A stretch of DNA of 64,000 bases from Escherichia phage PGN6866: sequence record MT127620; one strand, 5' to 3'. This document shows, in pieces, positions 1 through 4,801 of the stretch. How positions within the stretch are numbered: the first letter of the stretch is position 1; every line of letters begins with the position of its first letter. Below the pieces are notes generated by a model. The model was not told the DNA's origin. It made no database searches and was given only the letters and a program-made list of their open reading frames with translations. Both the position numbers and the translations under genes were made by a program.

Positions 1-469
1 AATCACCTTTTTCACCTTGAGCGCCATCTTTACCATCAATGCCATCTTTACCATCAATGCCATCTTTACCATCAATGCCATCTTTACCATCAATGCCATC
101 TTTACCATCAATGCCATCTTTACCATCAATGCCATCTTTACCATCAATGCCATCTTTACCATCAATGCCATCTTTACCATTGATGCCAGCCGATCCAGTA
201 TCACCTTTTAAGCCCTGCTCTCCGCGATCACCCTTGTCACCTTTCGGACCTTGTTCGCCTTGAATACCCTGCAATCCTTGCTCCCCTCGGTCGCCTTTCT
301 CTCCCTGATCACCTTTTTCACCTTTAAACCAATCTCCGATACCGCAACCATTGGTAGATTGACCTACACCACAGCCTCCATTGCCATTGCCATTGTTTCC
401 ACTTTTAGCAAAAATAGGCGATGCCATTACGGACAGAGCTAAGATTGAGGATAATACAATTGCTTTCAT
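1..469 (-). CDS. collagen-like Gly-X-Y repeat protein with N-terminal signal peptide; 3' end runs off window start
   Basis: Minus-strand ATG at 469..467; N-terminus MKAIVLSSILALSVMASPIFA then GEKGDQGEKGDRGEQG... and (GIDGKD)n; not in ORF track because no stop in window. Confidence 0.55.
   Translation of the reverse strand, partial: MKAIVLSSILALSVMASPIFAKSGNNGNGNGGCGVGQSTNGCGIGDWFKGEKGDQGEKGDRGEQGLQGIQGEQGPKGDKGDRGEQGLKGDTGSAGINGKDGIDGKDGIDGKDGIDGKDGIDGKDGIDGKDGIDGKDGIDGKDGIDGKDGAQGEKGD
23..184. repeat. 18-bp tandem repeat GCCATCTTTACCATCAAT, 8 perfect copies plus 1 variant
   Basis: Counted directly; encodes GIDGKD repeats on minus strand and creates artefactual plus-strand ORFs. Confidence 0.9.
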
Positions 470-841
470 TTCATAGATTCCTATACAGTAGACATAAAAA
501 AGCCCCAGCCGTAGCCGGGGCAAACCTGAAAGCAACACATGACCGTTGCTATAAATACACTCGCAAATGTACTTACAGCAACGCAAAAAGCCGCTCAAAG
601 GCGGCTATGCGGAAGCTTCAAATGGGGAGAGGGCACGACGCGACAGAAAGAGCGTCATAGTACTAAAAGAGAGGGGTGCTATTCCGTAATGATTCCCTAT
701 CCCTTTCTCTACTTCTAGATTCTATCTCCTTCTTTAGCAAATCGTTTTCTTCTTGCAAGGATGCTACCAGATGAACCAAAACATCAACTACTGCATCACC
801 TTTCCGCATCTCTCTGACTTTATTTAGAATCTCTGAATAAA

Positions 842-1285
842 TCATTTTACCCTCGCCTCTTTTATGGGGTCAATGTATTTTTCAACTCCCCATTTGTGTT
901 TACTATCTGCGTAGAAAACATCAGGCGCACACTGACTTGTCTTAGGAAATGCTTGAGGGTCTTTAGTGCTACCTTTAAACTTCTGTTTACCACGGGTGCG
1001 ACCATTACAGAAGATTTCTAACTTCTTCTCCTCTTCTGTTTTAGCTCCCCCGCTCTGTAACAAAGAACGTTTATGATCGGCTAACAATAACGCATCAGCA
1101 CGATGAACACGATGGCCTACACGTTTTGCCACACTGGAAGGAACATGGGATTCAGCCTCAGCCTTTGCAGCACGACGTTTTAAACTACGCTTACTAACGT
1201 GATTAGTTGCCTTCGGTTTCTCTTTCTCCAGTTCAGAGATAGCAAAACAACGCCCGCCCTTCATGCTGATTTTAGATTTAGCCAC
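842..1285 (-). CDS. hypothetical basic protein
   Basis: 147-aa ORF, K/R-rich, in a co-oriented gene string. Confidence 0.4.
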   Translation of the reverse strand: MAKSKISMKGGRCFAISELEKEKPKATNHVSKRSLKRRAAKAEAESHVPSSVAKRVGHRVHRADALLLADHKRSLLQSGGAKTEEEKKLEIFCNGRTRGKQKFKGSTKDPQAFPKTSQCAPDVFYADSKHKWGVEKYIDPIKEARVK

Positions 1286-3011: not shown

Positions 3012-4343
3012 GATATTCACCTTTCAATTGTAAGGGCGCTATTGCCCCGCTCTCTATGAGCTTATTTAAGTCACTATTAACTTAACTATAACCACTCGTT
3101 GTTAAGTAGTTATAGGTAAGCGGGGCGGTCTTATCAGGAGTTAACCTTGCCGCCCCCTTATCCGTGATGTTTCATCTGGTATCTTTAATTAGTCGCTATA
3201 AACGAAGCCGACCTGATAGCGATGATCAATCATCACAATAAGGCTATGCGTCCGACTCTATTTAATTACATTGCTGTAACCGTCGGCAATATCGTCTACT
3301 TTGTTTTCGCTCCCGCTTATCCTTTTGTATCAGCTCTCTATCGCTAGTCATCGCCCACTACGGGATACTATTGCGAAAGAGTCACTAACCGCCTAGTATT
3401 CCGGCGTTTTATATCTTTCGGCGGGTTTACTACATAACCCGACTATGTACTTTCATCTTGTGATGAATCTCAAGCCGTTCACATCGTAAACGTTCGCATT
3501 AAACCTTATTGTTAAATAGCAATTTGCCACTTTTTAACCACTCCCCGCCGCTCTCAATTGAGCGTTAATTCGTCGGGCTTGCCTACCCTGATTAACTTCT
3601 TTCACTGTAGCGCCTTGTTAGCGATGACCGCCGCTACCCTTAACCGTGGGCGATTAGCTTAAGTCTTTGCGTACACTCAATGAATCCGTTTATCAGTGGT
3701 GACGTTTCCAGTAAGGGAATGTAAAACTGTTTACCCTGATAATTTAGGGAGTTTTACGCCGTTTTATCTGGTATGTTATCCGATGGTTATTATCATCTAA
3801 CATATTCAACCGATATAGGAGAATGTTTAAATTATTAAAGAGCGGTAAATCTATCAGTGTGCTTTCTCACACTATGCAACTGTTAGCCGTTGTTACGCTT
3901 TTCACTGAAGCGATGATTTGCTTAGTGAGTGCTCATTATGAATCATGTTGTTTTCGCTGTCAACCGCTTTTTAATCTTTTTTCGTCGTTCCCGCTATTGG
4001 GAGGATATATCAATCAGCTTTATTTGATTGAAGATTAAGCGGTGAGGCTTAACTTATGATTCATATTGTTAAAGAGCGTTTTTTAGCCTTTTATAGTGTC
4101 TGCTAATCACTGCATCATTGAAGGCTTACTGATTCATTAACAGGACGCCTAACCCTGAACTACTCGCTGCACTATGTGCCACCTTTCCCGCGATACGTTG
4201 ATTTGGGAACTTGTTAGCGGTGTATCTGCTAACTTGTGGTTAGTATGGACTACTTTAACCACGTTTGCAACTCTTTTTATCATCTTCTTTTAATTCCTTT
4301 CCCTTATCTCGCGTGAATCTATGCGAAAGGGCAAGATGATAAG

Positions 4344-4359
4344 TTTTTAAAGAGCGGGA
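4344..4359. repeat. copy 1 of 15-mer TTTTTAAAGAGCGGG
   Basis: Identical 15-mer also at 4451..4465; shorter TTAAAGAGCG versions at 3835..3845 and 4069..4078. Confidence 0.8.
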
Positions 4360-4450
4360 TTTTTAAGTCATCGCTGACTATGCTCACTATATATCAGGCT
4401 GTTTTCGGTGTCAATACTCTTTTTGAGAATATTTTCACTTTCTAGCCTGA

Positions 4451-4465
4451 TTTTTAAAGAGCGGG
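4451..4465. repeat. copy 2 of 15-mer TTTTTAAAGAGCGGG
   Basis: Direct reading. Confidence 0.8.
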
Positions 4466-4692
4466 GGCAAGTTTCCTTGCCTTGTATGTTTTACATCGTA
4501 CCCGATGAATTGAAGTATACATTAACCAATGATGGTTGCAATAGGGTAAAGCAAATTATTTTAAACTTTTTTATAGTGGGATAGATAAAAGAACGGGCGC
4601 GCGTGATACATCATAGGAAACGGCTTGTAAAGCAACAATAAGCGTCCTAAAACGCATCACAACGAGCTAAAAGGGAGTAAGGCATACAATCA

Positions 4693-4726
4693 CCTCATAA
4701 AAGAGAAAAGCCTCACTAGGAGGCTT
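4693..4726 (-). terminator. putative rho-independent terminator (minus strand)
   Basis: 7-bp stem AAGCCTC/GAGGCTT 4708..4726 followed by T-rich run on minus strand, downstream of gene 4802..5176. Confidence 0.4.
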
Positions 4727-4801
4727 ACAGGAAGGATTAGAGAATCAGATAAATTATGACCATAGGCATGACTACGGCACAATACAGGAGAAAGATTAAG
4801 C

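What the first reader, a model, noticed from the sequence alone, without database searches (positions are those of the whole stretch)
1..469. Signal-peptide collagen-like protein built on eight perfect 18-bp tandem repeats
A minus-strand gene starting at 469 encodes a signal peptide followed by Gly-X-Y collagen-like repeats. The (GIDGKD)n part comes from eight base-perfect copies of an 18-bp unit plus one variant at 23..184. Perfect copies imply very recent expansion or an ongoing copy-number variable locus. Collagen-like proteins in phages are usually fibre or host-interaction proteins, but here it sits in an early-type region and carries a secretion signal.
Basis: seen in the sequence. Interest (0 to 1): 0.5.

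Follow-up and report, generated by a model that had tools for sequence, protein, structure and literature searches.

The report
Phage outer-membrane adhesin with collagen stalk
The window opens inside a phage gene for a small bacterial-type surface adhesin whose rod is a collagen-like triple helix; a perfect 18-base repeat sets the rod's length, and that length differs between closely related phages, but the gene family was already annotated, so this is a nice example rather than a discovery.

Summary
On the minus strand an ATG at 469 opens a reading frame that runs off the window start. It encodes a 21-residue signal peptide, a 28-residue tip with two cysteines, then 35 unbroken Gly-X-Y triplets. 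Eight base-perfect 18-bp units (23..166) plus one variant (167..184) encode (GIDGKD)n.

The window is a phiEco32-like Kuravirus, and the gene is the ortholog of phiEco32 phi32_119. Full-length orthologs continue into a coiled coil and a YadA-type membrane anchor. The protein is therefore a short trimeric autotransporter with a collagen stalk, not a tail fibre.

The same 18-bp unit occurs 0, 1, 4, 5, 6 and 8 times in related phages, so the array is a true length-variable locus. However, three public assemblies break or gap exactly at this array, so the count of eight needs checking.

The gene is an accessory cassette in the early region:
- Only 14 of about 98 kuravirus records carry it.
- It is absent from SU10, Paul, ES17 and Bas91.
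- It is replaced by a helix-turn-helix gene in SGF2 and pEC-N1203-2Af.1.

Its biological role is untested. I favour an adhesin or agglutinin on infected cells, with a shield against incoming phage as the main rival. It is a new member of a known kind, of moderate interest.

The parts
1..469 (-). 5' part (156 codons) of the gene for a collagen-stalk trimeric autotransporter, ortholog of phiEco32 phi32_119. The gene runs off the window start. About 142 further codons are expected from orthologs, giving a protein of about 298 aa.
   Evidence: Translation. PHROG 26246 at E = 2.5e-33. Synteny and 95-98% DNA identity to phiEc_1, SkaterBoy_Bas90, Ec3-ASingh and phiEco32. Full-length orthologs.
407..469 (-). 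Sec-type signal peptide, residues 1-21 (MKAIVLSSILALSVMASPIFA), with cleavage predicted after IFA.
   Evidence: Lys2, hydrophobic core and small residue at -1. The same layout is present in all 39 aligned homologs. Judged by rule, not by a trained predictor.
323..406 (-). Short Gly/Asn-rich distal tip with a Cys-x8-Cys pair (residues 22-49); it replaces a globular head.
   Evidence: A second, unrelated tip type (HSDKCSHSKQCEVQQ, Cys-x5-Cys) sits on the same C-terminal half in EcP-vB, EcK-vB, P0005-P0007 and P0009.
1..322 (-). Collagen-like stalk: 35 unbroken Gly-X-Y triplets inside the window. Orthologs have 11 more before the coiled coil.
   Evidence: Pfam PF01391 at E = 2.9e-18. Triplet count and composition. 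Ortholog sequences.
23..184 (-). In-frame 18-bp tandem array. Eight identical units occupy 23..166 and one variant unit 167..184. Each unit encodes two triplets (IDGKDG).
   Evidence: TRF score 318. Unit-by-unit listing. Copy number in relatives is 0-8.
479..482 (-). Shine-Dalgarno-like AGGA, 9 nt upstream of the ATG.
   Evidence: Read from the sequence. The same leader precedes the alternative HTH gene in SGF2 and pEC-N1203-2Af.1.
496..521 (-). Intrinsic-terminator-like hairpin (8 pairs, 7 of them G-C) plus T6, 27 nt upstream of the ATG. It marks the upstream edge of the variable slot.
   Evidence: Annotated as a terminator in phage Paul. Relatives that lack the gene keep homology down to position 493.
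584..606 (-). Second intrinsic-terminator-like hairpin upstream of the first.
   Evidence: Two terminator features are annotated here in WFI101126.

Best explanation
What it is. The window starts inside the gene for a short trimeric autotransporter (type Vc secretion), the ortholog of phiEco32 gp119. Its passenger is not the usual head plus coiled-coil stalk. It is a collagen-like triple helix capped by a small two-cysteine tip.

How it is made (inferred from the family):
1. The Sec pathway exports the chain and cleaves the 21-residue signal peptide.
2. Three C-terminal anchors, each contributing four beta-strands, insert into the host outer membrane as one barrel.
3. The coiled coil just N-terminal of the anchor brings the three chains into register.
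4. The Gly-X-Y region zips into a triple helix outside the cell.

What the repeat does. The 18-bp array is an in-frame variable-number repeat. Each unit adds six residues, about 1.7 nm of rod. Slippage or unequal recombination therefore changes stalk length without touching the frame or the triplet register. Predicted stalks run from about 10 nm (KM01, 12 triplets) to about 40 nm (this window, 46 triplets if the missing end matches relatives).

Where it sits. The gene is a dispensable cassette in the early gene cluster, behind two terminators.

Biological role. This is the least certain step, at roughly 0.35. I favour an adhesin or agglutinin displayed on the infected cell, whose reach past the O-antigen layer is tuned by repeat number.

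Shown versus inferred. Shown: the sequence anatomy, the orthology, the anchor fold in orthologs, the copy-number and presence/absence variation, and the genome position. Inferred: export, trimerisation, triple-helix formation, timing of expression and function.
For: Identity:
- The window matches phiEco32-like kuraviruses at about 95% identity.
- The gene is syntenic with phi32_119, Bas90_0117 and the EcP-vB 'YadA-like protein'.
- The fragment hits PHROG 26246 at E = 2.5e-33.

Anchor in nine full-length orthologs:
- Pfam YadA_anchor PF03895 scores 69 bits against a cut-off of 22.7, alongside Collagen.
- The sequence aligns end to end with the solved YadA anchor 2LME (E = 7e-9) and with Hia.
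- The AlphaFold model of ortholog P0001 has a helix at 170-215 and four strands, with pLDDT 76-86.
- Its five best PDB matches are all autotransporter anchors (Hia, AtaA, YadA), with TM-scores normalised to the target of 0.67-0.87. Every other match has E > 0.1.
- The orthologs end in ...GVSYEW.

Window part: signal peptide and 35 triplets.

Length variation: the identical unit occurs 0 (KM01), 1 (phiEco32, EK5), 4 (phiEc_1, EcP-vB, EcK-vB), 5 (Ec3-ASingh), 6 (SkaterBoy) and 8 (window) times. Proteins of 226, 244, 250 and 262 aa differ by multiples of six residues.

Accessory status:
- The anchor is present at 95% identity or more in 14 of about 98 kuravirus records.
- It is cleanly absent in SU10, Paul, ES17 and Bas91.
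- It is replaced by an HTH_37 gene in SGF2 and pEC-N1203-2Af.1.

Early cluster.

Precedents:
- Collagen repeats next to a YadA anchor exist in Haemophilus parasuis VtaA proteins (PMC6211672).
- The number of collagen repeats scales with binding, cell-cell sedimentation and biofilm in Legionella Lcl (PMC6460258).
- It scales with filament length in BclA (reference cited in PMC10470788).
- Trimeric autotransporters mediate autoaggregation (PMC7568254 abstract).
Against: - The anchor of this particular copy lies outside the window. It is inferred from orthologs that match window 1..171 at 97% identity.
- No promoter was found for the gene, and two terminators lie directly upstream. Expression level and timing are therefore unproven. 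The primary phiEco32 expression papers could not be read.
- No YadA head, neck or stalk domains are present, and the tip is only 28 residues. A specific ligand-binding function is not evident.
- No experiment on any phage member of this family was found in the searchable literature.
- AlphaFold cannot model the collagen part as a monomer (pLDDT below 50 for residues 1-165).
- Most kuraviruses do without the gene.
Confidence: 0.8

Rival explanations
1. Same protein and biogenesis, different role. The early-made layer of stalks on the outer membrane acts as a shield that keeps further phage particles (competitors, or the phage's own progeny after lysis) from reaching LPS or O-antigen receptors. 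This would be a superinfection-exclusion or anti-adsorption device, with stalk length matched to the host's surface glycan layer.
For: - The gene sits in the early cluster and targets the outer membrane.
- Kuraviruses depend on O-antigen and LPS as receptors (PMC11990801).
- The gene is dispensable and patchy, as exclusion genes typically are.
- Collagen-stalk versions occur in the early or middle region of unrelated N4-like Salmonella phages.
- From my own knowledge: phage T5 Llp and the Cor proteins are early-made outer-membrane proteins that block receptors.
Against: - No known exclusion protein is a trimeric autotransporter.
- There is no match in PADLOC and no literature link.
- Two terminators upstream argue against the high expression a dense shield would need.
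- The demonstrated activities of this protein family are adhesion and aggregation.
Confidence: 0.3
2. It is a virion component, a collagen-like tail fibre or 'tail protein', as RefSeq, PHROGs and several GenBank records label it.
For: - PHROG 26246 is labelled 'tail protein', and many collagen-containing tail-fibre PHROGs match the Gly-X-Y part.
- Records carry the annotations 'tail protein', 'tail fibers protein' and 'recognition of host receptor'.
Against: - The tail-fibre matches cover only the low-complexity collagen part.
- The protein has a Sec signal peptide and an outer-membrane beta-barrel anchor. Neither fits assembly of tails in the cytoplasm.
- It lies in the early leftward cluster, far from the structural genes.
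- It is absent from SU10, whose virion structure has been solved according to PMC11990801, and from most other kuraviruses.
Confidence: 0.03
3. The array is real, but the count of eight perfect copies is an assembly product: collapsed, expanded or stitched at a contig end. The apparent record length would then not be biological.
For: - The MN03 'complete genome' starts and ends inside this array, with 7 and 6 units and aberrant 9-bp half units.
- FS2B is deposited as two records that both stop in the array.
- ShigP1 has a run of N there.
- The window itself begins only 22 nt from the array.
Against: - The array in the window has unique sequence on both sides and stays in frame.
- At 162 bp it can be spanned by ordinary reads.
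- Several independent complete genomes give different clean counts in multiples of 18 bp.
Confidence: 0.12
4. In this phage the gene is truncated just beyond the window, so the product is a secreted, unanchored collagen-like peptide or a pseudogene.
For: The 3' part is not visible. The locus is prone to deletion and replacement.
Against: - All nine orthologs with this 5' part carry the complete anchor.
- Window 1..22 (AQGEKGD) continues the frame exactly as they do, and window 1..171 matches SkaterBoy at 97% identity.
Confidence: 0.03

Closest known systems
phiEco32 gp119 (phi32_119), labelled 'agglutinating adhesin', 'tail protein' or 'YadA-like protein', and its kuravirus orthologs (PHROG 26246)
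   Same: Same genome slot, same signal peptide and tip (phiEco32 type), same repeat unit, and the same C-terminal sequence as far as the window reaches. Moreno Switt et al. 2013 already noted a yadA homologue in phiEco32 (PMC3728262).
   Different: - This allele is a mosaic. It joins the phiEco32-type tip to the longer EcP-vB-type collagen segment, then adds 8 identical units against 1-6 in relatives. That gives the longest stalk among those compared.
- No identical full-length protein was found in the 5.8-billion-protein collection; the best match is 86% identical.
- The annotated starts of phi32_119 and Bas90_0117 lie upstream of a terminator and look wrong.
Trimeric autotransporter adhesins: YadA, Hia, AtaA and the prophage-encoded Eib proteins (type Vc secretion)
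   Same: Sec signal peptide. C-terminal helix plus a four-strand anchor that matches the YadA, Hia and AtaA anchors in sequence and predicted fold. A terminal aromatic residue.
   Different: - No YadA head, neck or stalk domains.
- The passenger is a collagen triple helix with a 28-residue tip, and the whole protein is only about 200-300 aa.
- It is encoded by a virulent phage in its early region, not by a bacterial chromosome, virulence plasmid or prophage.
VtaA trimeric autotransporters of Haemophilus (Glaesserella) parasuis
   Same: Collagen triple-helix repeats (PF01391) placed directly before the C-terminal YadA anchor, with repeat indels between strains (PMC6211672).
   Different: VtaA proteins are large, with extended signal peptides and several YadA head and stalk domains ahead of the collagen part. 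The phage protein has the collagen part only.
Collagen-stalk autotransporters of N4-like Salmonella phages (Ithacavirus FSL SP-058 and SP-076, TR2, SP154, UTK0002)
   Same: Same architecture, with anchors 66-67% identical. The GKDADM junction between collagen and coiled coil is invariant. The genes sit among early or middle genes, next to an RNA polymerase gene and a dUTPase gene.
   Different: A different phage family (Schitoviridae), a larger tip of about 60 residues, and longer, more degenerate collagen regions without a homogeneous array.
Length-polymorphic bacterial collagen-like surface proteins: Legionella Lcl, Bacillus anthracis BclA, streptococcal Scl1 and Scl2
   Same: Gly-X-Y arrays that vary in number between strains. 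Repeat number sets filament length (BclA) or binding and aggregation strength (Lcl). There are sub-threshold NCBIfam matches to Scl and Lcl.
   Different: Different anchoring (LPXTG, exosporium basal layer, peripheral membrane) and different trimerisation domains. None is phage-encoded in a lytic early region. All NCBIfam scores are far below the family cut-offs.
Collagen-like phage tail fibres
   Same: Gly-X-Y repeats in a phage-encoded trimeric fibre.
   Different: Tail fibres lack a signal peptide and a membrane anchor, lie in the structural module and are needed for the virion. This gene fails all three tests.

Membership tests
Trimeric autotransporter adhesins (type Vc) | N-terminal Sec signal peptide | tested here: met
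   Lys2, hydrophobic core at residues 3-16, I-F-A before a polar region. Conserved in 39 homologs. Judged by rule; no trained predictor was available.
Trimeric autotransporter adhesins (type Vc) | C-terminal YadA-like membrane anchor (PF03895), tested in orthologs | tested here: met
   69 bits against a cut-off of 22.7 in phiEco32 and EcP-vB orthologs. Aligns end to end with the YadA anchor 2LME at E = 7e-9. Present in all nine full-length kuravirus orthologs.
Trimeric autotransporter adhesins (type Vc) | C-terminal anchor in the copy encoded by this window | not testable with these tools
   The gene runs off the window start 22 nt after the array. The source genome was not found in the collections.
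Trimeric autotransporter adhesins (type Vc) | Coiled-coil helix followed by four beta-strands per chain; fold of solved anchors | tested here: met
   Model of ortholog P0001: helix 170-215, strands 226-235, 238-248, 253-262 and 267-275, pLDDT 76-86. The top five PDB matches are the Hia, AtaA and YadA anchors at E from 3e-8 to 5e-4.
Trimeric autotransporter adhesins (type Vc) | Terminal aromatic residue (outer-membrane insertion signal) | tested here: met
   Orthologs end in GVSYEW; W277 is invariant in 39 homologs.
Trimeric autotransporter adhesins (type Vc) | YadA-type head, neck or stalk domains in the passenger | tested here: not met
   Pfam finds only Collagen and YadA_anchor. The passenger is atypical. 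This feature is usual for the family but does not define it.
Trimeric autotransporter adhesins (type Vc) | Trimer with a 12-strand barrel in the outer membrane; passenger exposed on the surface | not testable with these tools
   Needs biochemistry: heat-stable trimer, protease shaving, microscopy.
Bacterial or phage collagen-like proteins (PF01391) | Long uninterrupted Gly-X-Y run above the Pfam threshold | tested here: met
   35 triplets without a break in the window. 65.8 bits against a cut-off of 27.2.
Bacterial or phage collagen-like proteins (PF01391) | Adjacent trimerisation domain to nucleate the triple helix | tested here: met
   Orthologs have a coiled coil plus trimeric anchor directly after the last triplet, joined by an invariant GKDADM motif.
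Bacterial or phage collagen-like proteins (PF01391) | Actual triple-helix formation | not testable with these tools
   Monomer AlphaFold gives pLDDT below 50 for this part. Needs circular dichroism or protease resistance.
Phage tail fibre or tail protein | Encoded in the late structural module | tested here: not met
   The gene lies in the leftward early cluster between phi32_120 and phi32_117 homologs.
Phage tail fibre or tail protein | Conserved in relatives that make the same virion | tested here: not met
   Absent from SU10, Paul, ES17 and Bas91; replaced in SGF2 and pEC-N1203-2Af.1; present in 14 of about 98 records.
Phage tail fibre or tail protein | Detected in purified virions | not tested
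   The phiEco32 proteomics paper is not held. The SU10 proteomics is uninformative because SU10 lacks the gene.
Moron-type accessory cassette | Presence/absence polymorphism at a fixed slot with alternative cargo | tested here: met
   Two different deletion or replacement junctions; an HTH_37 gene in the same slot with the same leader and a relic of the adhesin 3' end.
Moron-type accessory cassette | Own promoter | tested here: inconclusive
   No sigma-70-like site lies upstream. TACTGTATA at 482..490 is a one-mismatch match to the phage sigma (gp36) motif, but such matches occur at the chance rate: 19 found against 19.4 expected.

The most novel reading that the evidence does not exclude
Virulent phages of at least two unrelated families (Kuravirus and N4-like Ithacavirus) use an early-made, headless collagen-stalk autotransporter as a length-adjustable coat on the infected cell. 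Slippage of the 18-bp unit lets the stalk overtop whatever O-antigen layer the current host carries. The coat, possibly cross-linked through the tip cysteines, either excludes incoming phage or glues infected cells to fresh hosts. This would be a new class of phage-directed remodelling of the host surface.
Probability: 0.2. Interest if true: 0.7.

Novelty: new member of a known kind. Interest (0 to 1): 0.35.

Why it matters
Practical points:
- Databases label this gene family 'tail protein' or 'tail fibre'. The evidence here says that is wrong, which matters for host-range prediction and for engineering of kuraviruses used in therapy.
- The array is a contig-breaking repeat, so 'complete' genomes of these phages can be misjoined or miscounted at this point.

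Biological point. A strictly lytic phage that installs a bacterial-type adhesin on its host's surface within minutes, and varies the adhesin's reach by repeat slippage, is an untested piece of phage-host surface biology. The natural allelic series of 0 to 8 units, together with natural knock-outs (SU10, ES17) and replacements (SGF2), gives a ready-made experimental set.

Tried and rejected
- **Promoter for the gene.** The sigma-70 scan finds none on the minus strand between 470 and 700. The gp36-type motif TACTGTATA (482..490) looked attractive because the alternative cargo in SGF2 has TATTGTATA at the same place. However, one-mismatch matches occur at exactly the chance rate in the window, and the implied transcript would lack the ribosome-binding site. 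I do not claim it.
- **Small RNA between the two terminators.** The only Rfam match is MicX at 24 bits against a gathering score of 75. Rejected.
- **Defence or exclusion families.** No PADLOC match for the adhesin or the HTH protein.
- **Host origin.** No blastn match in 5,426 complete E. coli genomes. The nearest bacterial anchors, at 52-63% identity, are in Enterobacter, Scandinavium, Dryocola, Ewingella, Citrobacter, Klebsiella and others. Most of these have non-collagen passengers.
- **Finding the window's own genome to read the missing 3' end.** None of three searches produced it: megablast (best 95.7% identity), the protein search (best 86% identity), and an exact look-up of the neighbouring gene's product.
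- **Primary phiEco32 papers (PMC2587145, PMC3275717).** Not held. The expression class rests on secondary descriptions.
- **Structure.** A monomer AlphaFold model is uninformative for the collagen part and the tip.
- **Named equivalogs.** NCBIfam models for Scl1, Scl2, Lcl, BimA and YadA all match only in part and far below their cut-offs, so the protein is not an equivalog of any named adhesin.

Full report
**1. The observation.**
The minus strand from 469 to 1 translates without a stop into 156 residues. The order is as follows:
- MKAIVLSSILALSVMASPIFA, a signal-peptide-like segment. It has Lys2, a hydrophobic core with Kyte-Doolittle 9-residue means of 1.5-2.8, and I-F-A before a polar stretch.
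- A 28-residue Gly/Asn-rich tip with a Cys-x8-Cys pair.
- From Gly50, 35 Gly-X-Y triplets with no interruption. In these, 64% of X/Y residues are charged and there is one proline.

Pfam Collagen scores 65.8 bits against a cut-off of 27.2.

Tandem Repeats Finder gives 23..188, period 18, 9.2 copies, 98% matches, score 318. Nothing else in the 64 kb scores above 55. In register on the coding strand the array is one ATCAATGGTAAAGATGGC (167..184) followed by eight identical ATTGATGGTAAAGATGGC (23..166).

**2. What genome and what gene.**
The first 6 kb match 98 phage records, nearly all Escherichia or Shigella kuraviruses. The best are phiEc_1, Ec3-ASingh, FS2B and MN03 at about 95-96% identity.

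In phiEco32 the corresponding gene is phi32_119. GenBank calls it 'agglutinating adhesin' and RefSeq calls it 'tail protein'. The EcP-vB ortholog is labelled 'YadA-like protein'.

Full-length orthologs read from the ATG that gives MKAIVL... are 196-262 aa. After the collagen part they continue with ...GKDADMSAVNANAKSIKALEQSTNKRFASLQKQVDRNRDHASAGISGVAAMANIPQ... and end in GAGVSYEW.

**3. The missing half is a trimeric-autotransporter anchor.**
- Pfam YadA_anchor matches the orthologs at 69 bits against a cut-off of 22.7.
- The last 90 residues align end to end with the solved YadA anchor 2LME (E = 7e-9) and with Hia.
- An AlphaFold model of ortholog P0001 has a long helix (170-215) and four strands, with pLDDT 76-86.
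- Its five best PDB matches are the Hia, AtaA and YadA transmembrane domains. All other matches have E > 0.1.

Together with the signal peptide this defines a type Vc autotransporter. The passenger lacks YadA head, neck and stalk domains. It consists of the collagen region and the small tip.

The anchor of the window's own copy cannot be seen. The inference rests on window 1..171 matching SkaterBoy at 97% identity, and on all nine orthologs being complete.

**4. The array is a real length-variable locus, with a warning.**
The identical 18-bp unit is shared across the lineage:

| Phage | Exact copies of the unit |
|---|---|
| KM01 | 0 |
| phiEco32, EK5 | 1 |
| phiEc_1, EcP-vB, EcK-vB | 4 |
| Ec3-ASingh | 5 |
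| SkaterBoy_Bas90 | 6 |
| this window | 8 |

Proteins of 226, 244, 250 and 262 aa differ by whole units. KM01 has lost the whole block between two GEKGD motifs. Metagenomic alleles such as P0001 have arrays with interspersed variant units. The homogeneous run here therefore looks like a recent expansion of an inherited unit.

One unit is two triplets. At 0.286 nm per residue, which is the standard collagen rise, each unit adds about 1.7 nm. Predicted stalks range from about 10 nm (12 triplets, KM01) to about 40 nm (46 triplets here, counting 11 triplets expected beyond the window).

The warning concerns assembly:
- The MN03 'complete' record begins and ends inside the array, with malformed half units.
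- FS2B is split into two records that both stop in the array.
- ShigP1 has a run of N there.
- The window itself starts 22 nt from the array.

**5. The gene is an accessory cassette in the early region.**
Only 14 of about 98 kuravirus records carry the anchor at 95% identity or more.
- SU10, Paul, ES17 and Bas91 have a clean gap. It runs from just after the terminator at window 496..521 to inside the small ORF that follows the adhesin gene.
- SGF2 and pEC-N1203-2Af.1 keep the same leader up to the ATG but carry a 98-aa HTH_37 protein instead. This is followed by a decayed relic of the adhesin's last codons, GVSYK-stop.
- The tip also comes in two unrelated types on the same C-terminal half.
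- This allele joins the phiEco32-type tip to the EcP-vB-type collagen segment.

The slot lies in the leftward cluster that the literature assigns to the early class in phiEco32 and SU10. It sits downstream of the long promoter-bearing spacer, and directly behind two terminator-like hairpins. I found no promoter of its own.

**6. Wider family.**
Anchor relatives occur in 78 of 50,697 phage records, from many virulent groups:
- N4-like Ithacavirus;
- jumbo phages such as GAP32;
- T4-like phages such as SKML-39;
- Aeromonas, Erwinia, Yersinia and Pantoea phages.

The collagen-stalk version is shared with the Ithacavirus group. There it also sits among non-structural genes. The GKDADM junction is invariant across 39 homologs.

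The nearest bacterial anchors are in non-E. coli Enterobacterales and mostly carry coiled-coil passengers. Nothing similar is in 5,426 E. coli genomes.

Collagen repeats next to a YadA anchor are known in Haemophilus parasuis VtaA proteins.

**7. Mechanism and role.**
Biogenesis follows from family membership and is inferred, not shown: Sec export, outer-membrane insertion of a trimeric barrel, and C-to-N emergence of the passenger. The coiled coil would act as the registration domain that bacterial collagens need.

For the role there is no direct evidence. The tested activities of relatives by design point to an adhesin or agglutinin whose reach and avidity are set by unit number:
- autoaggregation by trimeric autotransporters;
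- binding and sedimentation that scale with collagen repeat number in Lcl;
- filament length set by repeat number in BclA.

I put this at about 0.35. An early-made shield against adsorbing phage is a close rival at about 0.3. It fits the early outer-membrane location and the O-antigen and LPS dependence of kuraviruses.

The 'tail protein' label is contradicted by the signal peptide, the anchor, the genome position and the gene's absence from most relatives, including SU10.

**8. Novelty and verdict.**
The gene family, its YadA likeness and the collagen-plus-anchor architecture are all on record. As far as I could find, several things are not described:
- the repeat-driven allelic series of stalk lengths;
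- the cassette behaviour with alternative cargo;
- the tip swapping;
- the fact that the array breaks assemblies.

This is a new member, and the longest allele seen, of a known kind. The finding is sound and modestly interesting. It would become much more interesting if the role on infected cells were shown.

Noticed in passing
window 1..184; L186 and L187 (MN03 record ends); FS2B records MW929182 and MW929183; L088 (ShigP1): Public assemblies of related phages break at this 18-bp array. The MN03 record starts and ends inside it, with malformed 9-bp half units. FS2B is split into two records that both stop in it. ShigP1 has a run of N there. The window itself begins 22 nt from the array.
   Followed up: yes
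L089:880-1260 (SGF2) and L091:1180-1560 (pEC-N1203-2Af.1), equivalent to the window slot left of 469: The same slot, with the same leader sequence, carries a 98-aa helix-turn-helix protein (Pfam HTH_37, E = 2e-17) in place of the adhesin. It is followed by a relic of the adhesin's last codons. In pEC-N1203-2Af.1 this HTH gene is annotated 'recognition of host receptor'.
   Followed up: partly
L001:2573-3370 (phi32_119) and L084:773-1690 (Bas90_0117): The annotated start codons lie upstream of the terminator hairpin, so the deposited proteins begin with about 40 residues of translated terminator and leader (…GLPRLRLGLF…). The ATG that gives MKAIVL is the plausible start.
   Followed up: yes
window 482..490 (minus strand): TACTGTATA, 12 nt upstream of the ATG, is a one-mismatch match to the phiEco32 gp36 promoter element tAATGTAtA. 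SGF2 has TATTGTATA at the same place. The number of such matches in the window equals the chance expectation, so its meaning is open.
   Followed up: partly
window 496..521 and 584..606 (minus strand): Two intrinsic-terminator-like hairpins in tandem, 62 nt apart, lie between the upstream early genes and the adhesin gene. This 190-nt stretch is 96-99% conserved even in phages that lack the adhesin.
   Followed up: partly
window about 3060..4800: A stretch of about 1.75 kb with no ORF longer than 71 codons. It corresponds to the unannotated 1.9 kb between phi32_124 and phi32_125. The SU10 paper places three early promoters in the equivalent spacer of SU10 (between its genes 120 and 121), as in phiEco32.
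   Followed up: no
window 663..845 (minus strand): A 60-codon ORF overlapping the end of the phi32_120 homolog. It is present in this phage, Paul and KM01 but absent in phiEco32 and SkaterBoy, so it is another small variable element of the early region.
   Followed up: no
alignment A1 (39 homologs), positions 164-169 of P0001: The motif GKDADM at the junction between the last collagen triplet and the coiled coil is invariant from kuraviruses to N4-like phages and bacterial proteins. It may be a dedicated connector between the triple helix and the coiled coil.
   Followed up: no
L001:2073-2462 and homologs just left of the window: The gene two positions downstream of the adhesin encodes a Hydrolase_2 (SleB-like cell-wall hydrolase) protein. 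In phages that lack the adhesin it directly follows the terminator.
   Followed up: no
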